This document shows, piece after piece, positions 7,111 through 42,331 of a DNA stretch of 64,000 bases. Numbering within the stretch: position 1 is the first letter of the stretch; each line of letters opens with the position of its first letter. The notes beneath the pieces were generated by a model. That model made no database searches. It was not told the DNA's origin and saw nothing but the letters and a program-made list of their open reading frames with translations. Source of the DNA: an uncultured Actinomycetota bacterium (GTDB lineage Bacteria; Actinomycetota; Actinomycetes; Mycobacteriales; QHCD01); assembly GCA_963775655.1 (NCBI GenBank), contig CAVZJT010000007.1, positions 680,230-744,229 on the forward strand. The letters are read 5' to 3'. The translations under genes and the position numbers were made by a program.

Positions 7111-9240
7111 GTGGCCGAGGACACCGCGACCGCCGGGCGCGCGGCGTCGACGCGACGCGTCATCCTGCTGATCCTCCGCAAGTGTCCATTCACGGCCGCC
7201 GTCGTGGTCGCACTACTCGTCGTCGGTGCCGCCACCACGACGCTGTGGCACGCCACCGAACATCAATCGTGGTATCCCGACGTCGCCTTCGGTCTGCCGT
7301 CTTTCGAGAAGGGACGCTGGTGGACCTTGGTCACCGGCCCCTGGTTCGCCATATCCCCCGTGGTCTACCTGCCGCTGATCCTGGCGTTCGCACTGCTCGT
7401 CGGATACACCGAATGGCAGGTCGGGACCAGGCGGGCGGCGACGTACTGCGTCGGCGGGCAAATAGTCGGCGTACTCGGCGCCGCGTTCTTTCTCTGGATC
7501 TTCCACGACACCGGATGGACGTGGGCGCACCAGCTGGCCGGTGGCGTCGACGTAGGGTTCTCGGCCGGTGCGCTCGCGTCGATCGCCGTCCTCTCCGCGG
7601 CGATCCGTGCGCCCTGGCGGCTGCGCATACGGGCGGTGCTCGTCGGCTATGTCGCGATCTCCGTGCTCTACGTCGGCACCCTCGCCGACCTCGAGCACGC
7701 CATCGCGGTGGCCGTCGCGCTGCCGCTGGGCCGCTACCTGGTCGGCGGTGTGCCGACGCACGACCGGGCTGGACCGTCCCGGCGGGAGTGGCGTCTCATT
7801 TCCGCGGTCGGGCTCGCCGTGATCGCCGGGATCCGCTTCGTCGTCTGGTTGCTCCCCGGTAACGGGCCGCTCGGATCCACCGCAGGGACAGGAGGATCCG
7901 CGGCCGAGGTCGCGGTCGTGCTCGTCGTGACCGCGCTTCTGGTCAACGGGTTGCGGCGCGGACGACGGGTGGCCTGGCGGTGGGCCGTCGGCTTTTCCGG
8001 GTTATTCGTCGCCCTCGCCCTCGTCGCCGCCGTGCTCCTGATCGTCGCCGGAGCGATCCCGGGACCGAACCCCGACATCGATGTGGGCGGTCAACCGTTG
8101 TTCGTTGCCGACGGAGTGCTGTGGGCCGGCATGCTGCTGGTGCTCATCCTCGCGCGCGACGCCTTCGCCGTACCGGGAGGACGACGCCGGCGTCGTGGGG
8201 TGCCGGGCGCGGTCGATCGCGAGGAGGCGGTCGCGCTGCTCCGCCGGCACGGCGGCGACCACCTGTCCTGGATGACGACCTGGCCCGCGAACACCTACTT
8301 CAGCGGTGACGGCACCGAGGCCTACGTCGCCTACCGAGTGCAGGCGGGTGTCGCACTCGGGCTCGGTGATCCGGTGGGGCTCCGCGCGGCCCGACTGACG
8401 TCCGTCCGGTCGTTCGCGTCGATGTGCGACGCGTCCGGCTTCACTCCCTGCCTCTTCTCGGTCGGTGCCACGGTCGCGGCGGCGGCCGAGGAGATCGGCT
8501 GGCAGTCCCTGCAGGTCGCCGAGGACACGGTGATCGACCTCGCCGGACTCGAATTCCGCGGCAAGTCGTGGCAGGGCGTGCGGACCGCACTCAACCGGGC
8601 GAAGAAGGAGGGCATCGAATACCGACTGGTGGTCCTCGCCGACGAGCCCGCCTCGGTGATCGACCAGGTGCGGGAGATTTCCGAGGAATGGGTGGGGGAC
8701 AAGAAGCTCCCGGAGATGGGCTTCACACTCGGCGGTGTCGATGAGGCCCTCGACCGGCAGGTGCGGGTCGGACTCGCGATCGACGGCGACGGCCGGGTGC
8801 AGGGCGTCACGTCGTGGCTGCCCGTGTACGACGGGGGCGACCGGATCTCGGGCTGGACCCTCGACGTCATGCGCCGCCGTAGCGACGGGTTCCGGCCCGT
8901 GGTCGAGTACCTCATCGCCTCGGCGTGCCTCGCGTTTCAGGCCGAGGGCGCGGATTTCCTCTCCCTGTCCGCCGCCCCGTTGGCGCGTAGCGAATCGGCC
9001 CAGGCGACGACCACACTGGACCGGCTGCTCGACGCACTCGGCGCCGCACTCGAGCCCTACTACGGCTTCCGCTCCCTGCACACCTTCAAGATGAAGTTCA
9101 AGCCGCGCTATGAACCGCTCTACCTCGTCTACCGCGACGAGGCGGACCTGCCGCGGATCGGCATCGCCCTCACCCGGGCCTACCTGCCTGATGCGGACGC
9201 CCGGGATCTCCTTCGGCTGGCGACGACGGGGCGTGAGTGA
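7111..9240 (+). CDS. MprF/LysX-like membrane protein (polytopic N-terminal domain plus C-terminal DUF2156 aminoacyl-phosphatidylglycerol synthase-type domain, no LysRS domain)
   Basis: GTG at 7111 (V161 of track ORF 6631..9240) lies 2 nt after the upstream stop. The C-terminal half (LSWMTTWPANTYF...AYVAYRVQAGVALGLGDPVG...FRGKSWQGVRTALNRAKKEGIEYRLV) matches my recollection of the MprF/LysX C-terminal domain. Confidence 0.7.
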   Translation: MAEDTATAGRAASTRRVILLILRKCPFTAAVVVALLVVGAATTTLWHATEHQSWYPDVAFGLPSFEKGRWWTLVTGPWFAISPVVYLPLILAFALLVGYTEWQVGTRRAATYCVGGQIVGVLGAAFFLWIFHDTGWTWAHQLAGGVDVGFSAGALASIAVLSAAIRAPWRLRIRAVLVGYVAISVLYVGTLADLEHAIAVAVALPLGRYLVGGVPTHDRAGPSRREWRLISAVGLAVIAGIRFVVWLLPGNGPLGSTAGTGGSAAEVAVVLVVTALLVNGLRRGRRVAWRWAVGFSGLFVALALVAAVLLIVAGAIPGPNPDIDVGGQPLFVADGVLWAGMLLVLILARDAFAVPGGRRRRRGVPGAVDREEAVALLRRHGGDHLSWMTTWPANTYFSGDGTEAYVAYRVQAGVALGLGDPVGLRAARLTSVRSFASMCDASGFTPCLFSVGATVAAAAEEIGWQSLQVAEDTVIDLAGLEFRGKSWQGVRTALNRAKKEGIEYRLVVLADEPASVIDQVREISEEWVGDKKLPEMGFTLGGVDEALDRQVRVGLAIDGDGRVQGVTSWLPVYDGGDRISGWTLDVMRRRSDGFRPVVEYLIASACLAFQAEGADFLSLSAAPLARSESAQATTTLDRLLDALGAALEPYYGFRSLHTFKMKFKPRYEPLYLVYRDEADLPRIGIALTRAYLPDADARDLLRLATTGRE

Positions 9241-34003: not shown

Positions 34004-34332
34004 GCGGTCGCGCTCCCTTGCGGTGACGGGACGGTCCCGAGGGGGTCGGAGGTCCTCAAGGACCGTGCGTGATGATCACCTACCACCCTAGTCCCGTCGT
34101 CCTCCGACGGCCCGGGTGCCTGCACCTCCCCCTTGCCGTCTTGTTGCCGTCCGGGCCGAGGGCGAAACCTCCCGATCCGGCGCGCCGGTCGACCGGTCGC
34201 GCTGGCCCGACCCGCACCCGGGAGGGTCGGCTGCCCGGATTACAGTGATCGGGTCACACCGCCGAGTCCATGAGGTGCCCTTCCCGTGTCCCGCCCCGCC
34301 GTCACCGGCAGCAGTGCGATGAGGGGCACCGG

Positions 34333-35244
34333 GTGACCGCCTACGCCGGGTCGCTGCCACCGCAGCGCACGGTCGGCTCGGTACTGCGGGCCTATCTGGC
34401 CCTGACCAAGCCGCGGATCATCGAGCTCCTGCTGGTCACCACCGTTCCGACGATGATGCTGGCCGCGCGCGGGCTGCCGTCCTGGACGACCGTCGGCGCG
34501 ACGCTGCTCGGCGGCGCGCTCGCCGCAGGCAGTGCCAACGCGCTCAACTGCTACATCGACCGCGACATCGACCAGCTGATGCGCCGTACCGAGCGTCGGC
34601 CGTTGGCCCGCCATCTCGTCCCGCCGCGCAACGCGCTGGCCTTCGGGGTGACGCTCGGAGTGCTCGCCACCGTGTGGCTCGCGCTGACGACCAATGTGCT
34701 GTCGGCGGCGCTCGCCGACGCGGCGATCCTCTTCTACGTCTTCGTCTACTCACTCGGCCTCAAGCGGCGTACGCCGCAGAACATCGTCTGGGGCGGGGCG
34801 GCCGGCTGCATGCCGGTCCTGATCGGCTGGTCGACGGTCACCGGCACGGTCTCGTGGGCGGCCGCGACGCTGTTCCTGGTGATCTTCTTCTGGACCCCGC
34901 CGCACTTCTGGGCGCTCGGCATGCGCTTCCGCGACGACTACGCCGCCGCCGGCGTCCCGATGCTGCCGGTGGTTGCCTCGCCCGAGGTCGTCGCCCGCCG
35001 CATCGTCATCTACACCTGGGTGCTGGTCGTGACGTCGGTGGTCCTCTGGCCGCTCGCCACGTCCTGGATCTACGGCGGCTCCGCGATCGTGCTCGGCGTG
35101 ATCTTCCTCTGGCACGCCTACCAGTTGCGCGCACAGGCCCGGGCCGGTGGGCGCATCACCTCGCTACGGCTGTTCCGCTGGTCCAACACGTATCTGTCGC
35201 TGCTCTTCCTCGCCCTCGCCGTCGACTCTCTGGTGCTGCACTAG
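34333..35244 (+). CDS. ctaB: protoheme IX farnesyltransferase (heme O synthase)
   Basis: GTG at 34333 (V22 of the track ORF) after [23 protein letters not shown]...[20 protein letters not shown]...[11 protein letters not shown]. Confidence 0.93.
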
Positions 35245-35292: not shown

Positions 35293-35333
35293 TCGGGTAC
35301 AGGTGGTACCGGGTTCCCGCAGGAGTGTGGGTC

Positions 35334-36158
35334 ATGGCGGTGGATTTCGACGGGACCGGCATCGCCCGGTCGCACATCATGCAGATCCCGGGCGACCGCG
35401 CCGCGGCCTACGTCACCCGGATGCGCGCGAGCAGTCCGGACTTCCGTGACCTACTGGTCCACTTCGAGGAGCGCGGCTTCCGCTTCGACGTGGACCGCGT
35501 GCGGGTCTTCGTCTACCTCGCCGACTCGGTCGACGGCGACGTCCCGACCGCCCACGTGTTGGGCATCCTGCCGAGCTACGGCGTCGCGTTCGCGACCGAC
35601 GCCGGCCACCAGGCGGTGTCGATCGGAGTGCACGACAGCGGATCGGCCATCGCCGGCATGGTCGACGTCGAGCACAACCCCTACCGGTTGATCCGGTTCG
35701 CCACCGTCATCCCCGCCGGGGAGGGCGAGCGGCCGGTCGAGCACTCGGTCGGCGCCGAGGAGCTCGGGTCGTTGTCCGCGCTCGAGATCGCCTCGCGGCT
35801 CGGCCCGCATCCGATCCGCGTGGTCGACCCGGTGCCGGCTCCGGCGACACTCGACCTGCCCGACCTGAGTGCGCTGTCGGCGATGCTGTTCCGTGAGCTG
35901 CTCGACGATCCGCAGACCCGGCCGATGTATCCGGCGTCGGCGATCGAGGCGCTGCTGGCGCAGACCCCACTGGTGCAGAAGTTCGCCACCGTCAACGCGC
36001 TGCAGCAGGGCGAGGCGGTGCGCCAGGTCGTACTGGGCATCGCCGACCCGGCGGCGGCCCGGACCATTCGCGGCGCGTGCAGCTGCTCCACCAGCTGCAA
36101 CGCGTGTACATCGACGTCGTGCAGCATCACCATCGGCAAAGCCACCAGCGTGCAGTGA
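35334..36158 (+). CDS. putative azole-RiPP precursor/substrate protein: 248-aa Cys-free N-terminal region plus Cys/Ser/Thr-rich C-terminal core
   Basis: ATG at 35334 lies 8 nt after AGGAG. Uninterrupted GC3-rich frame ending ...AAARTIRGA-CSCSTSCNACTSTSCSITIGKATSVQ. The stop overlaps the next gene's GTG (GTGA). Confidence 0.75.
   Translation: MAVDFDGTGIARSHIMQIPGDRAAAYVTRMRASSPDFRDLLVHFEERGFRFDVDRVRVFVYLADSVDGDVPTAHVLGILPSYGVAFATDAGHQAVSIGVHDSGSAIAGMVDVEHNPYRLIRFATVIPAGEGERPVEHSVGAEELGSLSALEIASRLGPHPIRVVDPVPAPATLDLPDLSALSAMLFRELLDDPQTRPMYPASAIEALLAQTPLVQKFATVNALQQGEAVRQVVLGIADPAAARTIRGACSCSTSCNACTSTSCSITIGKATSVQ
36078..36155 (+). other. predicted core region CSCSTSCNACTSTSCSITIGKATSVQ
   Basis: All 5 Cys of the protein are here. 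14 of the first 16 residues are Cys, Ser or Thr. Preceded by Gly-Ala. Confidence 0.65.
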
Positions 36159-37123
36159 GCGTCGAGCCGGATCCACCGTCCCACCACCCGGTCGTCGATC
36201 GCGCCGTCCGCGACCGGGTGCTCGCCGTACCGGATCTGCCCGCGACGACGGCGGACGCGCTCCGGCTCCTCGACCAGCTGCTGGACGGCCAACGGCCCGG
36301 CGGGGACGCGCTCGGGGCGGCGCTGACCGGCGGGCTCGAGCCCGCCGCGGTGGCCGACGCATGGGGGCGGCTCGTCGCGGCCGGGGCGTTGCGGGAAGGG
36401 CCGGATGCGACGCCCACCGACGCCAGGTGGGGGGACTATGCCGACCAAGCGCGCACGCTGGCCGTCCTCGCCTACGCCGAACGGGACGCGGAGGCGAGTG
36501 CGTGGCAGCGCGCCGGCGGCGAGCTGCAGGAACGGCTGGCCGCGGCCGCCGTCGTCGTCGCCGGTGCCGGCAGCGCGTGGCGCCGGGTCGCCGAGGATCT
36601 CGAGGCGGCCGGGGTCGGCACGCTGTCACCGGTCGGCGACGCCGACCTGACGGTGCCCGGGCGCTGTGATCTCGTCGTGCACGTCAGCGACGATCCGCGC
36701 CCGGAGCGTCGGTTGCAGATCGGCCGGTCGCTGACCCGGGCCGGCGTACCCGCGGTGTTCTATCACCGCGATCAGGGCGACATCGTGGTCGGTCCGTTCG
36801 TCTACCCGGGCCAGACCGCGTGCGTGGAGTGCGTGGAGTTGCGCCGCGCGGCGGCCCGCAGCCACTGGGCGCCGGGTGGCGAGCCCACGGCTCCACCGCT
36901 GCTCCGGTTTCCGGTCGGCACGGATCTGCTCGCGCTCGACGTGGTGAAGTTTCTCAGCGAGGCGGCGCTGCCGGCGACGAGGGGCCGGATCGTGCGGTTC
37001 GACCTGCGGGTCGGCGTACCGAGCGTGCATCCCGTGCTCCGGCTGCCGCGGTGCCCGGCCTGCGGAGTCGGGCCGGCCGCGCCGGTACGTCGGCTGTGGT
37101 CCGCCGCCGACGCCGGGTCGTGA
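36155..37123 (+). CDS. E1/ThiF-like partner of the cyclodehydratase (TOMM C protein, leader-binding scaffold)
   Basis: GTG at 36155 (V27 of the track ORF). Rossmann-like VVVAGAGSAWRRVAEDLEAAGVG. Paired zinc-type motifs CVECV and CPACG. Confidence 0.75.
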   Translation: MSVEPDPPSHHPVVDRAVRDRVLAVPDLPATTADALRLLDQLLDGQRPGGDALGAALTGGLEPAAVADAWGRLVAAGALREGPDATPTDARWGDYADQARTLAVLAYAERDAEASAWQRAGGELQERLAAAAVVVAGAGSAWRRVAEDLEAAGVGTLSPVGDADLTVPGRCDLVVHVSDDPRPERRLQIGRSLTRAGVPAVFYHRDQGDIVVGPFVYPGQTACVECVELRRAAARSHWAPGGEPTAPPLLRFPVGTDLLALDVVKFLSEAALPATRGRIVRFDLRVGVPSVHPVLRLPRCPACGVGPAAPVRRLWSAADAGS

Positions 37124-38427
37124 CCGCCGCACGCCGCCCGGCCGACCTGGTCGACGGTTACGTCGGACTGGTCACCGACCTCGTCCAGGTGCCGGTCGGC
37201 GCGGCCGACCCGGCCGTGCACGTGGTCGGCGGACGGGTCGCCGACCTGGCGTGTTACGGCGTCGACGTCACCGCCGAGGTCAACGGCAGCGGAGCGGGGA
37301 TGACCCTCGCCGACGCCACGAGTGCCGCAGTGGGGGAGTCCTTCGAGCGCTACGCGTGCTGCCTGCCGCCGCCGGGCGGCCTGATCGCCGGGAGCTACGC
37401 GGACCTGAGCGACCGGGCCGACGCCGATCCGGTGGAGCCGGGACGGTGGGCGCTCTTCGATCCGGGCCAGCAGGTTCCTTTTCCGCACTTCGACGAGCAC
37501 ACTCCGCTGACCTGGGTGACCGGCTGGAGCCTGACGCGGCAGCGGGCGCGGCTCGTCCCGGCCTGTCTCGTCTACTTCGGGCCGGACGCCGACCTGCGCC
37601 CCGACGGCTGCGTCACGATCGCGCCCGCGGTGTCCACCGGCGCCGCCTGCGACAGCACCTCGACCGGCGCGACGGTGCGCGGACTGCTCGAACTGATCGA
37701 GCGGGACGCGGTGCTGATCCACTGGCGCAACCGCATCACGCCCCGCCGGCTGCGGATCGACCCGGCGAGCGGGCTCGCCGCCGACTTCACCGACGTCTTC
37801 GCCCGGCCGGGTCTGCGCTACGAGCTCTACGACGTCTCCCTGGACCTGCCGGCCACCGCCGTGCTCGGAACGCTCACCGACGAGCGCCGCAACCCGCCGG
37901 CGGTGTTCGCCGCCGGTGCGGCGCACCCGGATCCGGAGACCGCTGTGCGCAAGACGCTGGTGGAGCTGGTGCAGGGGCTGCGGTGGGGTGACCAGACGAC
38001 CGGGCGCACCGTCGAGCCGCTCCCCGGGTTCGTCAACATCCGCAGTTTCGAGGACCGGATGCGGCTTTACTCCGGCAACGACCTGAGCGAGGCGTTCGCG
38101 TTCCTGCAGTCGCCGGCCGCTCCGCTCGACCTCAGCACGGTGGCGCGCTCGCGCGAGCCGACCATCGACGTCCTCGGCCGCCTCGTCTCCGGGCTCGGCG
38201 ACCGCGACCTCGACGTCATCGCCGTCGACATCACGACCGACGACCTCGCCGAGTGCGGGGTCGTCGTGGTGAAGACGCTGGTGCCCGGCCTGACCACTAT
38301 GGAGGGCGACCACACCGCGCCGTTCCTCGGCGGCCGGCGGTGGCGGCGACTCCCGGTCGAGCTCGGACTGCTCGATCGGGAGCGCGAACCCGCCGAGCTC
38401 AACCCGTATCCGCACCCCTACCCGTGA
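37120..38427 (+). CDS. YcaO-domain azoline-forming cyclodehydratase (TOMM D protein)
   Basis: GTG at 37120 (V101 of the track ORF) forms a GTGA overlap with the upstream stop. AAVGESFERYA, STGAACDST...RGLLELIERDA, and a terminal proline-rich NPYPHPYP (PxPxP-type) C-terminus. Confidence 0.88.
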   Translation: MTAARRPADLVDGYVGLVTDLVQVPVGAADPAVHVVGGRVADLACYGVDVTAEVNGSGAGMTLADATSAAVGESFERYACCLPPPGGLIAGSYADLSDRADADPVEPGRWALFDPGQQVPFPHFDEHTPLTWVTGWSLTRQRARLVPACLVYFGPDADLRPDGCVTIAPAVSTGAACDSTSTGATVRGLLELIERDAVLIHWRNRITPRRLRIDPASGLAADFTDVFARPGLRYELYDVSLDLPATAVLGTLTDERRNPPAVFAAGAAHPDPETAVRKTLVELVQGLRWGDQTTGRTVEPLPGFVNIRSFEDRMRLYSGNDLSEAFAFLQSPAAPLDLSTVARSREPTIDVLGRLVSGLGDRDLDVIAVDITTDDLAECGVVVVKTLVPGLTTMEGDHTAPFLGGRRWRRLPVELGLLDREREPAELNPYPHPYP

Positions 38428-38435
38428 GGTCGCCG

Positions 38436-39257
38436 ATGGAGGAGAACCGGGCACCGCTGCTCGACGAGGCTCCGGCCGACCTCTTCTCGCCCGCCGAGGT
38501 CTTCCACGAAGCCTCCAAGCTCCAGCCGACCGACATCGACCTCTTCCTCACCATCCGGATGGTCAGCGGGTCACCCGACATCCGCCGGGTGATCTCCCGT
38601 CCGGCCGCCCGGTGCGCCGGGCTGCCCGCGATCGACCTCCCCGCCCCCGCAGGGCTCGCGGACGTCACCGTCGGAGACGCGATCCGGCGCCGCCGGTCGC
38701 GGCGGGAGATGACGGGGGAGGCGGTGGGCATGGGCGAGATCGCGACGTTGCTGTACGCCGCCGCCGGGGTGGTGACGCGGTCGACCGACCCGGCGGACGG
38801 CACGACGTGGGGGTTGCGGACCACCCCGTCCGGCGGCGGGCTCTACCCGGTCGAGGTCTATTGCTGCGCGCTCGATGTGGCCGGCCTGCCGGCCGGCGTG
38901 TACGGCTACCTGCCCGCCTCCCACCAGATCGCCCAGCTCTACCCGGGCTCGACCCGGGCCGAGCTCGACACGGCGCTGAGCGTCCCCGACGTCGCCGACA
39001 CCGCGGCGGCCTGCATCGTGCTGTCCGGTGTCCCGCGCCGTACCGCATTCAAGTACGGCGAGCGCGGCTACCGCTTCGAGCTGCTCGAGTCCGGGCACGC
39101 GTGCCAGAACCTGCTGCTCGCCTCGGCGGCGCTCGATCTCGCCGCGGTCCCGATCGGCGGATTCCTCGACGACGCGCTCAACGACATCCTGCGCGTCGAC
39201 GGGCTCACCGAACACGCGCTGTACGCGATTCCGGTCGGACGACCGGCGGCGGACTGA
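38436..39257 (+). CDS. SagB-type FMN-dependent azoline dehydrogenase (TOMM B protein, nitroreductase fold)
   Basis: ATG at 38436 (M62 of the track ORF) after GAGG. RRRSRREMTGE..., PSGGGLYPVEVY, RTAFKYGERGYRFELLESGHACQNLLLA (Lys-Tyr motif). Confidence 0.88.
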   Translation: MEENRAPLLDEAPADLFSPAEVFHEASKLQPTDIDLFLTIRMVSGSPDIRRVISRPAARCAGLPAIDLPAPAGLADVTVGDAIRRRRSRREMTGEAVGMGEIATLLYAAAGVVTRSTDPADGTTWGLRTTPSGGGLYPVEVYCCALDVAGLPAGVYGYLPASHQIAQLYPGSTRAELDTALSVPDVADTAAACIVLSGVPRRTAFKYGERGYRFELLESGHACQNLLLASAALDLAAVPIGGFLDDALNDILRVDGLTEHALYAIPVGRPAAD

Positions 39258-39274: not shown

Positions 39275-39312
39275 ACGGCCCGGCCGCGGGCTGGTGCCCA
39301 CGGCCGGGCCGT
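39275..39312. terminator. bidirectional hairpin between the convergent dehydrogenase and pepD genes
   Basis: Perfect 12-bp arms ACGGCCCGGCCG / CGGCCGGGCCGT with a 14-nt loop, 18 nt after the dehydrogenase stop. Confidence 0.55.
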
Positions 39313-39368: not shown

Positions 39369-40856
39369 TCAGTGGCCCTTGTCCGAGCCGAGCGTGACGG
39401 TGACGGTGTGGGTGGCTCCGTCCCGCTCGTAGGTGACGGTGACCGCGTCGCCCGGCCGGTTGGCCCGGACCGCGGCGACCAGCGCGTCCGCGGAGTCGAT
39501 CTCCCGGTCGCCGAGCTTGGTCACCACGTCACCCTGCCGCAGGCCGGCCTTGGCGGCCGCTCCGCTGCCGGTGACCGCGGCGAGCTTCGCTCCGGTCGGG
39601 GTGGCGCCGTTGCTGCTCGCGTCGGTGACGCTGACGCCGAGTTGTGCGTGGCTCGCCGTACCGGAGTTGACCAGCTGGTCGACGATGGGCCGCGCCTCGT
39701 CGATCGGGATCGCGAAGCCGACGCCGATCGAGCCGGACTGCTGTCCACCGCCGGCGTCGCTGCCGCCGAGGCTCGCGATCGCGGAGTTGATGCCCACGAC
39801 CTGACCCTGCATGTTGACCAGCGCCCCGCCGGAGTTGCCGGGGTTGATCGCGGCGTCGGTCTGGATGGCGTCGATGACCGTGGCCTGGGGTGACCCGCTG
39901 GACGGGGCCTGATTCGGGCTCTGCTGCGACGAGTCACTGGTCTGCACCGGCCGGTTCAGCGCGCTGACGATGCCCGACGTCACGGTGCCGGACAGGCCGA
40001 GCGGCGAGCCGATCGCCACGACCGGCTGACCGACCGCGAGGCCGGTGGACTTGCCGAGGCTGGCCGGGTGCAGTCCCTGCACGTCCTTGGCCTTGATCAC
40101 GGCGAGGTCGGTCGTCGGATCGCGTCCGACGATGGTCGCCGGCACGGTCTTGCCGTTGTTGAAGGTGACGGTGAGCGTGGCCGACGCGGAGCTCTGCGAG
40201 CCGAGGGCGCCGTTGCCGCTGCCACTGTTGGCGGCGGCGGCCGCCGCCACGACGTGGTTGTTGGTGAGGATCTGGCCGTCCGAGGACAGGATGATGCCCG
40301 AGCCCTCGTCGCCGCCGTCGCTGGTGGCGACGGTGATCGACACGACGCTGGGGAGCACCCCGGCGGCGACCTGCTGCACGGAACCGGCCGGGGCCCTGTT
40401 CGCGGCATTGTTGGAGACCGGCGGTGCGGCGAGCGAGCTCACCACGGTCTTGGTGCCACCGCCGAAGTGGTTTTCGACCGCGGCGCCGACGCCACCGCCG
40501 ACGAGGGCGACGACGAGGAGCGCCACGGTGGCCGCGGCGATGCGGCGGCGGCGAGGCTGCGGGGCACCGGCCGCCGGACCGTAGGTCGAGTAGCCGTACG
40601 GCGGAGGTGGCGGGGGTGGCTGCTGACTCCAGCCGGGGCCGGTCTGGTGCCAGGCGGGTGACCACGGCGACGGTTCGTCCGCCGGGGTACGGGGACCGGG
40701 CGGCAGGGCCGAGGTCGGGTGGGTCTCATCCGCGCCGCCGGCTCCGGCGGCGAAGGGCCAGTCGGAGCGGGGCGCGGGGCCGCCGGCGCCCGGCTGGGTG
40801 GTGCCATCGTCCTGCGGATACGGACGTGGCTCGTCCGGACGGTGATCGTCTGTCAT
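39369..40856 (-). CDS. pepD: HtrA/PepD-like trypsin-fold serine protease with PDZ domain
   Basis: ATG at 40856 (M144 of the track ORF). Pro-rich cytoplasmic N-terminus, one TM span, TNNHVV, DLAVIK, GNSGGALVN catalytic motifs, and a C-terminal PDZ domain. Confidence 0.88.
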   Translation of the reverse strand: MTDDHRPDEPRPYPQDDGTTQPGAGGPAPRSDWPFAAGAGGADETHPTSALPPGPRTPADEPSPWSPAWHQTGPGWSQQPPPPPPPYGYSTYGPAAGAPQPRRRRIAAATVALLVVALVGGGVGAAVENHFGGGTKTVVSSLAAPPVSNNAANRAPAGSVQQVAAGVLPSVVSITVATSDGGDEGSGIILSSDGQILTNNHVVAAAAAANSGSGNGALGSQSSASATLTVTFNNGKTVPATIVGRDPTTDLAVIKAKDVQGLHPASLGKSTGLAVGQPVVAIGSPLGLSGTVTSGIVSALNRPVQTSDSSQQSPNQAPSSGSPQATVIDAIQTDAAINPGNSGGALVNMQGQVVGINSAIASLGGSDAGGGQQSGSIGVGFAIPIDEARPIVDQLVNSGTASHAQLGVSVTDASSNGATPTGAKLAAVTGSGAAAKAGLRQGDVVTKLGDREIDSADALVAAVRANRPGDAVTVTYERDGATHTVTVTLGSDKGH

Positions 40857-40876
40857 GGCCACAGCGTGGTCCGCCA

Positions 40877-40895
40877 GCCTGAGAGGACCCTGAAA
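40877..40895 (-). promoter_or_regulatory. MprA-box-like 8-3-8 direct repeat TTTCAGGG-TCC-TCTCAGGC upstream of pepD
   Basis: Minus-strand reading. Followed by 8 nt, CACGCT (40868-40863), 6 nt, then the pepD ATG. Same geometry as the mprA box. Confidence 0.45.
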
Positions 40896-40936
40896 GCGGG
40901 CTGAAGTATGCAGAAGACTTTGCGATCGGCGCGCGG

Positions 40937-42331
40937 TCAGGTGCGCGCCGGCGCGTGGCCCGGCAGCCGCAGCGTGAACAGCGCCCCGCCGCCCGGCGCC
41001 GTACCGGCCGCGACCACCCCGCCGTGCCGGTCCGCCGCCTGCCGGACGATGGCCAGCCCGAGACCCGACCCGGGCAACCCCCGCGCGTCGACGGCGCGGT
41101 AGAAGCGGTCGAAGACGTGGGGCAGGTCCGCGGGCGCGATCCCGGGGCCCTGGTCGGCGACCTGCATTACGCCGTCGCGCAGCGTGACGGTCACGGTCGC
41201 ACCGGGCGGGCTCCACTTCGCCGCGTTGTCGAGCAGGTTGGTCACCGCGCGTTCCAGCGCGGTCGGGTCGCCGATGACGATCCACGGTTCGACGGCCACC
41301 GCGTAGGCGAGTCCGGGTGCGCGCCGGCGTACCCGGTCGATCGCCCGGTCGATGACGGCGCGCAGGTCGATCGGTTCGGGCCGGATCGCGGGGGAGTCGG
41401 TGCGGGCCAGCTCGACCAGGTCGCCGACCAGCACGGTGAGCTCCTGCGCCTGCGCGCGGACGTCGGCGAGGAGTTCGTCGCGGTCGGCCGGGTCGAGCGT
41501 CGGACCGCCGGCGCGGGCGCTCTGGGCGAGCAGGTCGAGATTGGTGCGCAGGCTGGTCAGCGGCGTACGCAGCTCGTGACCGGCGTCGGCGACCAGTTGT
41601 CGCTGCCGCTCGCGGGACTGCTCGAGCGCCTCCAGCATCAGGTTGAAGCTGCGGGTCAGCCGAGCCAGCTCGTCGTCGCCCTGCACCGGGATCGAGGTCA
41701 GCTCCTGGGTGCGTGCGACGTGCTCGGTCGCGGCCGTGAGCCGCTCGACCGGGCGTAAGCCGGCGCGGGCGACGGCCAGGCCGGCGCAGGCGGCCACCAC
41801 GATCCCGGCCAGTCCGACGATCAGCAGGACGAGGGCGAGCCGACCCAGTTCGTGGTCGGTCGCGGTCGTGGACTGTGCCAGCACGAGTGCGAGACCAGGC
41901 CGCACCGGGACGGCGACGACGCGGTAGGTGACGCCGTCCTCGATCGCGCTGCGCAGCGACGTATGCACGATGCCGTTGGCGACGGCGGTCTCCGGCGAGC
42001 CGATCGGCGGCACCGGCGCGCCGGAGAAGACGATCCGGTCGCCGCCGGAGGTGACCAGCGCGACCCGGACGTCGGTGGCCAGGGCGAGCACGACGTCGGG
42101 GATCCGGCCGAACCTCGTGATGTCGTTGACGAGCTGGGTCTGGGCCGCGGCGGTGGCACGCTGCTCGAGGTTGCTGTCGAGGCGGCTGCGCAGCTCGTGC
42201 CGCACGGTGAGGTAGCCGGCGACCGACGCCATCGCCACCGCGAGGCCGACCGCGACGGCCACCAGCACGGTGATCCGGGTGCGCAGGTTGAGCCGGGTCC
42301 AGGCCATGCCGACCCGGGACGGTCTGCTCAC
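40937..42331 (-). CDS. mprB: two-component sensor histidine kinase (MprB-like)
   Basis: GTG at 42331 forms a GTGA overlap with the mprA stop (alternative ATG at 42307). Two TM spans, HAMP domain, H-box [14 protein letters not shown], ATPase G-boxes. Confidence 0.88.

What the first reader, a model, noticed from the sequence alone, without database searches (positions are those of the whole stretch)
35334..36158. The apparent substrate is a 274-aa protein, not a short peptide: a 248-aa Cys-free region fused to a 26-aa CSCSTSCNACTSTSCS... core
The frame is uninterrupted from the ATG at 35334 (AGGAG 8 nt upstream) to the TGA at 36156. Third-position GC is high throughout. The opposite-strand ORFs (35451..36629, 35681..36448) are Arg/Pro-rich shadow artefacts.

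The first 248 residues contain no cysteine and look like a normal, non-repetitive globular sequence (MAVDFDGTGIARSHIMQIPGDRAAAYVTRMRASSPDFRDLLVHFEERGFRFDVDRVRVFVY...). I do not recognise it as an NHLP, Nif11 or other known leader family. All five Cys lie in the final 26 residues: CSCSTSCNACTSTSCSITIGKATSVQ. Of these 26, 17 are Cys/Ser/Thr, and 14 of the first 16 are.

The core is preceded by ...AAARTIRGA. The Gly-Ala just before the first Cys recalls GG/GA-type leader cleavage sites.

Known TOMM/LAP precursors are mostly about 40-110 aa. A leader of roughly 250 aa, or azole installation on the tail of a folded protein, would be unusual either way.
Basis: partly seen in the sequence, partly recalled or inferred. 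Interest (0 to 1): 0.9.

Follow-up and report, generated by a model that had tools for sequence, protein, structure and literature searches.

The report
Protein-sized precursor for an azole synthetase
A 274-residue folded protein with a short cysteine/serine/threonine tail, not a short peptide, appears to be the conserved substrate of a standard thiazole/oxazole-forming enzyme set; it belongs to an unannotated family found in several phyla, about 40% of whose members carry an export signal for folded proteins.

Summary
ORF 35334-36158 (+) encodes 274 aa, and all five Cys lie in the last 26 residues. Its stop overlaps the start of the next gene. Downstream lies a complete azole synthetase: an E1-like C protein, a YcaO D protein and a SagB-type B dehydrogenase.

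The fusion is not an annotation artefact. An exhaustive search found about 90 distant relatives (25-40% identity). All 66 near-full-length ones keep the ~230-aa domain and a bipartite core: about 7 Cys/Ser/Thr, then Asn-Ala/Gly, then about 7 Cys/Ser/Thr. In 16 of 17 informative loci (GC 32-73%; Actinomycetota, Chloroflexota and unassigned metagenome contigs) the gene is followed by C-D-B.

Both domain and tail are under purifying selection, the tail more strongly. AlphaFold2 predicts a confident α/β domain with a disordered tail. No Pfam, NCBIfam, NHLP, Nif11 or PDB match was found.

New here: 25 of 66 relatives carry an N-terminal twin-arginine (Tat) signal; the window protein does not.

Best reading: a protein-sized precursor for an otherwise canonical azole synthetase. 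Whether the tail stays on the protein or is released is unresolved. It is a new variant of a known kind, supported by computation only.

The parts
35321..35325 (+). Shine-Dalgarno-like AGGAG, 8 nt upstream of the ATG
   Evidence: Read directly from the sequence.
35334..36158 (+). Gene A: the 274-aa precursor protein (domain, linker, core, follower, stop)
   Evidence: Translation. GC3 is 0.93. There are about 90 family representatives. dN/dS was measured against close orthologues.
35367..36038 (+). Folded α/β domain, residues ~12-235. Near-invariant residues are L18, F51, R55, P80, H92, H114, P116, D192 and Y199.
   Evidence: AlphaFold2 gives pLDDT mostly above 90 here. Residue conservation is 62-65 of 66. 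No Pfam, NCBIfam or PDB match.
36039..36077 (+). Linker, residues 236-248 (…GIADPAAARTIRGA), variable in length and sequence across the family
   Evidence: Family alignment. pLDDT is below 50 from residue 242. The residue before the core is not conserved.
36078..36125 (+). Bipartite core, residues 249-264: CSCSTSC-NA-CTSTSCS, with 14 residues that could be heterocyclised
   Evidence: All 66 members have run1 (median 7), a 2-residue spacer (NA 28, NG 21) and run2 (median 7). Among orthologues there are 0 non-synonymous versus 2-5 synonymous changes.
36126..36155 (+). Short C-terminal follower, residues 265-274 (ITIGKATSVQ)
   Evidence: The family median is 7 residues after the core, range 0-18, often alternating hydrophobic residues.
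36155..37123 (+). Gene C: E1/ThiF-like partner protein. Its GTG start overlaps the stop of A (GTGA).
   Evidence: TIGR03882 scores 52.3 bits against a cut-off of 36.9. ThiF is found in 10 of 10 homologues. CxxC…CxxC is conserved. The overlap is read from the sequence.
37120..38427 (+). Gene D: YcaO cyclodehydratase. Its GTG start overlaps the stop of C (GTGA).
   Evidence: PF02624 at 3e-61. TIGR03604 scores 232.4 bits against a cut-off of 219.25. The closest solved structures are LynD, TruD and MusD. The C-terminus NPYPHPYP is conserved in 15 of 15 homologues.
38436..39257 (+). Gene B: SagB-type FMN dehydrogenase (azoline to azole)
   Evidence: TIGR03605 scores 137.3 bits against a cut-off of 78.4. 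PF00881 at 1e-22.
39275..39312 (.). GC-rich hairpin (17-nt arms, 94% complementary) between the convergent B and HtrA-like genes; a possible terminator
   Evidence: Inverted repeat I1. The consensus terminator scan found nothing.

Best explanation
Gene A encodes the genuine, full-length substrate of the adjacent C-D-B azole synthetase. It has a ~230-residue folded domain, a flexible linker, and a conserved bipartite Cys/Ser/Thr core near the C-terminus.

Inferred mechanism:
1. A, C, D and B are made from one translationally coupled operon.
2. The C/D complex engages the A protein. The domain, or its conserved C-terminal helices, plays the role that a short leader peptide plays elsewhere.
3. 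YcaO cyclodehydrates residues of the disordered tail in an ATP-dependent reaction.
4. The SagB-type dehydrogenase oxidises the azolines to azoles. This would give two contiguous polyazole blocks separated by Asn-Ala, up to 14 rings and about -280 Da in the window protein.
5. In about 40% of family members a Tat signal then exports the folded, already modified protein. The window protein has no signal and would stay cytoplasmic unless exported by some other route.

Shown here: the ORF, the gene order, the enzyme family memberships, conservation of the fusion, selection, the predicted fold, and the Tat motifs in relatives.

Inferred only: the modification itself, how the enzymes recognise the protein, and what becomes of the tail. 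I lean slightly (about 45 to 40) towards the tail staying on the protein as a functional appendage rather than being released as a free peptide. The reasons are that the core is more constrained than the domain, the domain has its own near-invariant His/His/Asp/Tyr/Arg set, and no protease, exporter or immunity gene travels with the cassette.
For: - ORF, ribosome-binding site and GTGA overlaps with downstream genes.
- Canonical enzymes above curated cut-offs.
- The YcaO C-terminal NPxPHPYP motif is kept in 15 of 15 homologues.
- The exhaustive search found 90 representatives, most aligning over residues ~10-265.
- All 66 aligned members keep both the domain and the bipartite core.
- Gene order A-C-D-B is complete in 14 loci and cut by the contig end in 2 more. 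These span GC 0.32-0.73 and include Jatrophihabitantaceae and Caldilineales MAGs.
- dN/dS is 0.11-0.25 for the domain and about 0 for the tail.
- AlphaFold2 gives pLDDT 82.9 and pTM 0.81, with the tail disordered.
- No other Cys/Ser/Thr-dense ORF lies near the cassettes.
- 25 of 66 members have a twin-arginine motif plus a hydrophobic stretch. The Caldilineales examples read GRRAFLG and ARRSFLG.
- No protease or exporter is conserved in the flanks.
Against: - There is no biochemical evidence that the tail is modified or that the full-length protein accumulates.
- All family members come from MAGs or metagenomes. No cultured organism was identified.
- A leader-binding (RRE) domain in the C protein could not be confirmed. 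Pfam gave no PqqD hit and the structure model was unusable at pLDDT 41.9.
- One homologue (L017) has no C-D-B within 6 kb downstream, though its contig ends 490 bp upstream.
- Additional internal translation starts cannot be excluded from sequence alone.
Confidence: 0.78

Rival explanations
1. Giant-leader LAP. The whole ~248-residue domain is only a disposable, protein-like leader, like NHLP but larger. After modification an unlinked protease releases a roughly 16-26-residue, plantazolicin-like polyazole peptide, and that peptide is the active product, for example an antibiotic.
For: - The enzyme set is the canonical LAP set.
- The bipartite core (7 - 2 - 7) resembles the plantazolicin core RCTCTTIISSSSTF, which is 5 - 2 - 5. 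That sequence is attested in the papers found; its parsing into blocks is my own knowledge.
- Structured NHLP leaders are an accepted precedent (PMC12455567 and PMC12537861).
- The cassette often sits among mobile-element genes, as accessory antagonism traits do.
Against: - No conserved cleavage motif precedes the core.
- No protease, ABC exporter or immunity gene is conserved with the cassette.
- The core is under stronger constraint than the leader.
- The domain has near-invariant polar residues H92, H114, D192, Y199 and R55 that hint at a function of its own.
- About half the family has no export route for a toxin.
Confidence: 0.4
2. Halocin-C8-like pro-protein. The precursor is exported by Tat and then cleaved outside the cell into an N-terminal immunity or chaperone protein and a C-terminal Cys-rich toxin. 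Here the toxin would also be azole-modified.
For: - ProC8 is 283 aa, Tat-secreted, and cleaved into N-terminal HalI and a 76-aa C-terminal halocin (bioRxiv 10.64898/2026.07.27.741052).
- It has similar size and layout.
- 25 of 66 family members have Tat motifs.
- A built-in immunity domain would explain the absence of a separate immunity gene.
Against: - The Pfam Hac8_like_N hit appears in 1 of 66 members at E = 0.095, which is chance level.
- No halocin C8 domain family was reported in any member at E ≤ 0.1.
- The window protein and about half the family lack any signal peptide.
- Halocin C8 is not known to need YcaO enzymes (my own knowledge).
Confidence: 0.15
3. Conventional short precursor. 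Translation really starts internally, for example at ATG 35883, and the upstream part of the frame is either a separate function or not translated.
For: An in-frame ATG exists at 35883 (residue 184), as seen. Sequence alone cannot exclude dual initiation.
Against: - The upstream 183 codons are under purifying selection.
- They are conserved to 25-40% identity across phyla as one continuous protein.
- They form a single confident fold together with residues 184-235.
- In relatives the Tat signal precedes the whole domain.
- The ATG at 35334 has an AGGAG 8 nt upstream. I saw no similar purine-rich site before 35883 in that sequence.
Confidence: 0.03
4. A is not a substrate. It would be an accessory, scaffold or regulatory protein of the synthetase with a low-complexity tail, and the real substrate would be encoded elsewhere.
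For: Cox et al. 2015 describe actinobacterial TOMM clusters ('mobilisins') that have only B, C and D, with no bioinformatically identified precursor (PMC4603692). So clusters with a remote or unrecognised precursor are conceivable.
Against: - The tail has exactly the composition that azole synthetases act on.
- It is the most constrained part of the protein.
- It is predicted disordered and accessible.
- No other Cys/Ser/Thr-dense ORF is present in the cassettes.
- The four genes travel together between phyla and on mobile elements.
Confidence: 0.04

Closest known systems
Linear azol(in)e-containing peptide (LAP/TOMM) clusters with separate C, D and B proteins, such as the plantazolicin, microcin B17 and streptolysin S types
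   Same: The three enzyme families are the same and score above curated cut-offs. The YcaO C-terminal proline-rich motif is present. A Cys/Ser/Thr-rich core is encoded directly upstream of the enzymes. The core's two contiguous blocks split by two residues echo plantazolicin's RCTCTTIISSSSTF (plus my own knowledge).
   Different: The precursor is 240-360 aa with a folded ~230-aa domain. Leaders are quoted as ~20-110 aa in PMC9052802. No conserved cleavage site, protease, transporter, immunity gene or methyltransferase is present. The core is conserved across phyla. About 40% of members carry Tat signals.
NHLP and Nif11 'protein-like' leader families (proteusins and relatives)
   Same: These leaders are unusually long and structured, and are engaged by modifying enzymes, including azoline-forming YcaOs, through protein-protein contacts (PMC12455567 and PMC12537861).
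   Different: There is no sequence relationship: no NHLP or Nif11 model hit at E ≤ 0.1 in any of 66 members. From my own knowledge the domain is roughly 2-3 times larger than those leaders and is α/β rather than a small helical bundle. Here the core is conserved; hypervariable cores in those families are my own recollection.
Halocin C8 precursor ProC8
   Same: It is a ~280-aa pro-protein with a Tat signal, a large N-terminal protein part and a Cys-rich C-terminal part.
   Different: No detectable homology. Halocin C8 has no associated YcaO/SagB enzymes (my own knowledge). Half of the present family lacks a signal peptide.
Bufferins (MNIO-modified small-protein metallophores)
   Same: These are ribosomal products that keep a small protein fold, carry enzyme-made heterocycles derived from Cys, and use a general export signal instead of a dedicated transporter. 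They are conserved and widespread rather than hypervariable (PMC11626156).
   Different: The chemistry and enzymes differ: MNIO/DUF692 plus DUF2063 make 5-thiooxazoles, versus YcaO/E1-like/SagB here. Bufferins use a Sec signal, not Tat, and are 80-120 aa. No metal link is shown here.
Engineered azole installation in folded proteins (MicD-F/ArtGox on mCherry and Rop)
   Same: Azoles are placed at the terminus or in a loop of a folded protein (PMC9052802).
   Different: That system is artificial and leader-free, and its authors present it as the first folded protein with an installed heterocycle. The present family would be a natural counterpart if the tail stays attached.

Membership tests
TOMM/LAP biosynthetic cluster | YcaO (D) cyclodehydratase of the SagD/TOMM type | tested here: met
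   TIGR03604 scores 232.4 bits against a cut-off of 219.25; PF02624 at 3e-61. The C-terminal NPYPHPYP is conserved in 15 of 15 homologues.
TOMM/LAP biosynthetic cluster | E1/ThiF-like C protein partner | tested here: met
   TIGR03882 scores 52.3 bits against a cut-off of 36.9. ThiF is found in 10 of 10 homologues.
TOMM/LAP biosynthetic cluster | SagB-type FMN dehydrogenase | tested here: met
   TIGR03605 scores 137.3 bits against a cut-off of 78.4.
TOMM/LAP biosynthetic cluster | Adjacent precursor with a Cys/Ser/Thr-rich core | tested here: met
   The core CSCSTSC-NA-CTSTSCS lies directly upstream and is conserved in 66 of 66 members.
TOMM/LAP biosynthetic cluster | Short precursor peptide (leader of roughly 20-110 aa) | tested here: not met
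   248 residues precede the core and form a confident fold. The quoted leader range comes from PMC9052802.
TOMM/LAP biosynthetic cluster | Azol(in)e rings actually present in the product | not testable with these tools
   This needs mass spectrometry or NMR.
TOMM/LAP biosynthetic cluster | RRE-type leader-binding domain in the C protein | tested here: inconclusive
   A conserved N-terminal 'LLDGxRT' three-helix segment is seen. Pfam gave no PqqD hit at E ≤ 10, and the AF2 model is unusable at pLDDT 41.9.
NHLP / Nif11 leader families | Match to the NHLP or Nif11 leader HMMs | tested here: not met
   No such NCBIfam/TIGRFAM hit at E ≤ 0.1 in the window protein or in any of 66 members.
Plantazolicin class | Two contiguous polyazole-forming blocks split by two residues | tested here: met
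   Run1 has median 7, the spacer is 2 residues, and run2 has median 7, in 66 of 66 members. This is a resemblance only.
Plantazolicin class | Short leader, dedicated protease and N-methyltransferase in the cluster (features recalled from my own knowledge) | tested here: not met
   The cassette has only four genes. The flanks vary and show no conserved protease or methyltransferase.
Halocin C8 pro-protein | Hac8_like_N (HalI) and halocin C8 domains | tested here: not met
   PF22862 appears in only 1 of 66 members at E = 0.095, below the 27-bit cut-off. No halocin C8 domain family was reported.
Tat-exported proteins | N-terminal twin-arginine motif followed by a hydrophobic stretch | tested here: not met
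   The window protein starts directly at the domain, and the longest in-frame ORF starts only 3 codons upstream. The feature is met in 25 of 66 relatives. Weak model hits fall on families I know to be Tat-signal proteins.
Bufferins | MNIO (DUF692) plus DUF2063 modifying enzymes | tested here: not met
   None appears in the cassette or its flanks.

The most novel reading that the evidence does not exclude
The polyazole tail is never cut off. This family would then be the first natural class of folded proteins carrying a permanent thiazole/oxazole appendage installed by RiPP-type enzymes. In that reading the appendage is made in the cytoplasm and, in many lineages, exported in the folded state by Tat. 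It could serve as a metal-binding site, a membrane or cell-wall anchor, or a ligand-like lid over the domain's conserved His/His/Asp site. That would move YcaO azole chemistry from peptide natural products to a protein-level modification.
Probability: 0.35. Interest if true: 0.9.

Novelty: new variant of a known kind. Interest (0 to 1): 0.8.

Why it matters
Azole-forming YcaO systems are understood as acting on short leader-plus-core peptides. The largest accepted leaders, NHLP and Nif11, are already treated as exceptional and protein-like.

A conserved, cross-phylum family with a ~230-residue folded domain in front of the core, often behind a Tat signal, stretches that paradigm in two ways:
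- It offers a natural system for studying protein-protein substrate recognition by azole synthetases.
- It raises the testable possibility that azoles occur naturally as modifications of folded, exported proteins. Until now this has been reported only as an engineering feat (PMC9052802).

There is also a practical consequence. Genome-mining tools that look for short precursors would presumably miss these clusters. Public records call the gene only 'hypothetical protein'.

Tried and rejected
- **Profile against PDB sequences.** The only hit was Gloeobacter Glr2806 (9k9w) at E = 1.4e-5. It is the sum of three weak repeats, each with an individual E-value of 5-47. They match a short helical motif (FRELLnDkyArPLYP versus YRQVLGNTYVMESERP). 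I rejected it as evidence of homology.
- **Pfam Hac8_like_N.** The hit at E = 0.095 occurred in 1 of 66 members, alongside about 10 unrelated families with similar scores, so it is chance level. I kept halocin C8 only as an architectural analogy.
- **Ser-His-Asp autoprotease idea.** S81 is only 52 of 66 and is replaced by Gly or Thr. I did not pursue it.
- **Word-indexed protein searches.** These returned only 3, 6 and 10 hits, probably because low-complexity tail words filled the candidate list. Trimming the tail helped little. No domain-only paralogue was seen, but the sensitivity of this test is limited.
- **RRE in the C protein.** Lenient Pfam found nothing. The single-sequence model was too poor to search with.
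- **Mobilisins (Cox 2015).** These are actinobacterial clusters with only B, C and D, and I checked them as a possible known equivalent. They have a fused cyclodehydratase and a short candidate peptide poor in Cys/Ser/Thr, so they are not the same.
- **Literature searches.** Searches for the core motifs, for Tat-signal RiPP precursors and for long-leader YcaO systems found no description of this family.
- **Promoter and terminator scan.** It found nothing.
Full report
**1. The observation**

Translating window 35334-36158 (+) gives a 274-residue protein ending …AAARTIRGA-CSCSTSCNACTSTSCSITIGKATSVQ*. All five Cys lie in the last 26 residues. Seventeen of those 26 are Cys/Ser/Thr, as are 14 of the first 16.

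AGGAG sits 8 nt before the ATG. The window is 70.5% GC, and the ORF has the codon-position GC of a real gene (0.68/0.50/0.93).

**2. The surroundings**

- Upstream on the minus strand lie zwf, tal and tkt. On the plus strand lies a heme O synthase, ctaB, at 34270-35244.
- Downstream of A lies a complete azole synthetase:
  - an E1/ThiF-like C protein (TIGR03882, 52.3 bits against a cut-off of 36.9);
  - a YcaO D protein (TIGR03604, 232.4 against 219.25);
  - a SagB-type dehydrogenase B (TIGR03605, 137.3 against 78.4).
- The stop of A (TGA 36156-58) overlaps an in-frame GTG at 36155 of C. The stop of C overlaps a GTG of D at 37120 in the same GTGA arrangement. B starts 9 nt after D. The four genes therefore look translationally coupled.
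- A 17-nt GC-rich hairpin follows B. Beyond it lie a convergent HtrA-like protease gene and a histidine kinase gene.
- The closest solved relatives of D are the YcaO domains of the cyanobactin heterocyclases LynD, TruD and MusD.
- All 15 D homologues I collected end in N-P-x-P-H-P-Y-P. I recall a C-terminal proline-rich motif as typical of active azoline-forming YcaOs.

**3. The fusion is a conserved protein family**

The word-indexed search found only the protein itself, an 84% orthologue and one 35% relative. The exhaustive HMMER scan of 1.84 billion cluster representatives found 90 relatives, 66 of them at E ≤ 1e-10. Most align over query residues ~10-265, that is, through both domain and core.

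In an alignment of 66 near-full-length members (A1), every one has a bipartite tail:
- a run of Cys/Ser/Thr (median 7, range 3-11);
- a two-residue spacer (Asn-Ala 28, Asn-Gly 21, Asn-x 57 in all);
- a second run (median 7, range 4-9);
- a median of 7 further residues to the C-terminus.

Upstream of the core, Cys is rare (median 0.38%). No member has a stop between domain and core.

**4. Linkage to the enzymes**

I gathered loci from GTDB genomes, metagenomes and contig look-ups. I then located homologues of A, C, D and B by tblastn.

- The order A-C-D-B is complete in 14 distinct loci.
- It is cut by the contig end in two more (L018, L019).
- One locus (L017) has an A homologue with no C-D-B downstream. 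Its contig ends 490 bp upstream, so it is undetermined.

The loci span GC 0.32-0.73. They include Jatrophihabitantaceae/Mycobacteriales MAGs (97% identical to the window protein) and Caldilineales (Chloroflexota) MAGs, where A is ~30% identical and D 46-48%.

Flanking genes differ everywhere. Several cassettes sit among transposase, relaxase, resolvase or primase genes. No protease, ABC transporter, methyltransferase or immunity gene is conserved.

A six-frame scan found no other Cys/Ser/Thr-dense ORF that recurs near the cassettes. That argues against a hidden short precursor.

**5. Selection**

I compared the window gene with three orthologues (84-97% identical). dN/dS is 0.11-0.25 for residues 1-240. 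For residues 241-274 it is essentially 0, with 4-10 synonymous against 0-1 non-synonymous differences. The whole frame is therefore protein-coding, and the core is the most constrained part. From my own knowledge, NHLP/Nif11 precursor libraries show the opposite pattern, with hypervariable cores.

**6. The domain**

With the 66-sequence alignment, AlphaFold2 gives mean pLDDT 82.9 and pTM 0.81. It predicts a compact α/β domain over residues ~12-235: a six-stranded antiparallel sheet plus N- and C-terminal helices. The tail is disordered from residue 242.

The domain matches nothing:
- nothing in Pfam or NCBIfam, for the window protein or for any of the 66 members;
- no PDB sequence;
- no PDB structure by Foldseek (best E = 0.16).

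Near-invariant residues are L18, F51, R55, P80, H92, H114, P116, D192 and Y199, each 62-65 of 66. H92 and H114 lie at the open end of one β-hairpin in the predicted topology. This suggests a binding or metal site, but that is inference only.

Two apparent leads were rejected. One was a phycobilisome-linker hit built from three weak repeats. The other was a chance-level Halocin-8-like N-domain hit.

**7.

31 of 66 members have an N-terminal extension of at least 35 residues. 25 of these carry a twin-arginine (or KR) motif followed by a hydrophobic stretch and an Ala-rich end, and 23 have true RR. Examples are SRRALMGASVASV… and the Caldilineales proteins' GRRAFLGVGAASL…AAAAQ and ARRSFLGTGLASL…AAAQA.

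Weak model hits to hydrogenase small subunits, MelC1 and TAT_signal_seq appear in a few members. I know these families to carry Tat signals, so the hits are probably to the signal region.

None of the 35 short-N members has such a motif. That group includes the window protein, whose longest in-frame ORF starts only three codons upstream.

From established knowledge, Tat exports folded proteins. In these relatives the signal precedes the whole domain. So the domain is translated with the tail and travels with it at least as far as export.

**8. What it most likely is**

The best-supported reading is that A is the true, full-length substrate of a canonical C/D/B azole synthetase. Its folded domain takes the place of a leader peptide. 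The disordered tail would be converted into two contiguous polyazole blocks separated by Asn-Ala, up to 14 rings in the window protein.

What happens next is unresolved.

Points favouring a tail that stays attached (an azole-modified protein):
- the core is more conserved than the domain;
- the domain has its own invariant polar residues;
- no protease, exporter or immunity gene travels with the cassette.

Points favouring release of a peptide:
- every characterised LAP known to me is a released peptide;
- the core resembles plantazolicin's two-block design (plus my own knowledge);
- halocin C8 is a precedent for a Tat-exported ~280-aa pro-protein that is cleaved outside the cell;
- the cassette is often associated with mobile elements.

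I put these at roughly 45% and 40% respectively.

**9. Comparison with what is known**

On the enzyme side this is a member of the TOMM/LAP kind. It fails the 'short precursor peptide' criterion. It is not NHLP, Nif11, halocin C8 or bufferin by any sequence test run here.

The closest functional analogies are:
- NHLP leaders, which are structured and engaged through protein-protein contacts (PMC12455567, PMC12537861);
- bufferins, which are small folded proteins that keep their heterocycles and use a general export signal (PMC11626156);
- the engineered installation of azoles in folded proteins, described by its authors as the first such case (PMC9052802).

Literature searches found nothing for the core motif, for Tat-signal RiPP precursors or for long-leader YcaO systems. 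Public records call the protein 'hypothetical'. The held library lacks most subscription-journal papers, so prior description cannot be fully excluded.

**10. Verdict**

It is a new variant of a known kind: a canonical azole synthetase paired with a previously unannotated, protein-sized and often Tat-targeted precursor family. Interest is high (0.8). It offers a directly testable route to natural azole-modified proteins and to protein-level substrate recognition by YcaO systems. All mechanistic steps beyond gene content, conservation and predicted fold remain inferred.

Noticed in passing
L006 3060-4139; L007 7707-8759; family members P0003, P0007, P0019, P0021, P0041 and others: About 40% of family members (25 of 66) carry a canonical N-terminal twin-arginine signal ahead of the domain. 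The window protein and its close orthologues do not. The family therefore splits into exported and apparently cytoplasmic forms.
   Followed up: yes
L008, L009, L010, L020, L021 (flanks of the cassette): The four-gene A-C-D-B cassette often sits among transposase, relaxase (Replic_Relax), resolvase, SSB and primase genes. This suggests it moves horizontally. In the window it lies in a chromosomal context between ctaB and an HtrA-like protease gene.
   Followed up: partly
L009 1955-6341: A class II lanthipeptide synthetase (DUF4135 plus LANC_like) and an ATP-grasp MvdD-like gene lie just upstream of one cassette. This looks like a small island of peptide-modification genes.
   Followed up: no
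P0037, P0059, P0065, P0073, P0092, P0093 (tails); L008-L010 ~8778-8819: One sub-type has extremely Cys-dense cores, for example CCCCTCCCCNGCCSCCCCT and LCTCTCCCCNGSCSCSTVP. Another sub-type reads CSCTCCNGCTTTS. All keep the central Asn-Gly/Ala spacer.
   Followed up: partly
P0069, P0022, P0055 (C-termini): A few members deviate. P0069 has a Pro/Thr-rich ~25-aa extension after the core. P0022 has ~30 extra residues. P0055 has a Gly/Asn/Cys-rich tail (GCSGNSGSCGNCGTNCGNNCGN…) instead of the usual motif.
   Followed up: no
L017 496-1239: A low-GC (0.34) homologue with a typical core (ICTSTSSNACTSTSSSFTIFSAS) has no C-D-B genes in the 6 kb downstream. A LuxR-type regulator gene follows on the opposite strand. 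The contig ends 490 bp upstream, so the enzymes could lie there or elsewhere.
   Followed up: partly
window 35856-36000 (residues ~175-222 of A): The most conserved helical segment of the domain (FRELLxDxxArPLYPpxGxxxLL) weakly resembles the start of each of the three repeats of Gloeobacter protein Glr2806 (PDB 9k9w), which I know as a phycobilisome linker. Each single repeat is non-significant.
   Followed up: yes
window 39275-39312: A 17-nt, 94% complementary GC-rich inverted repeat lies between the convergent B and HtrA-like genes. It has no T-run, so the consensus terminator scan missed it.
   Followed up: partly
window 36155-36400; alignment A5 columns ~40-95: The C proteins share a conserved N-terminal segment (…LLDGxRT…G[FL]E…AGxLxE). 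It looks to me like a three-helix leader-binding (RRE/PqqD-like) module, but no HMM detects it.
   Followed up: partly
window 39369-41285 (-): The HtrA-like ORF is 638 aa when read from its first start. The orthologous gene called in L001 is 383 aa, and tblastn splits the match in two. The N-terminal ~250 codons may be a separate gene or an over-extended ORF.
   Followed up: no
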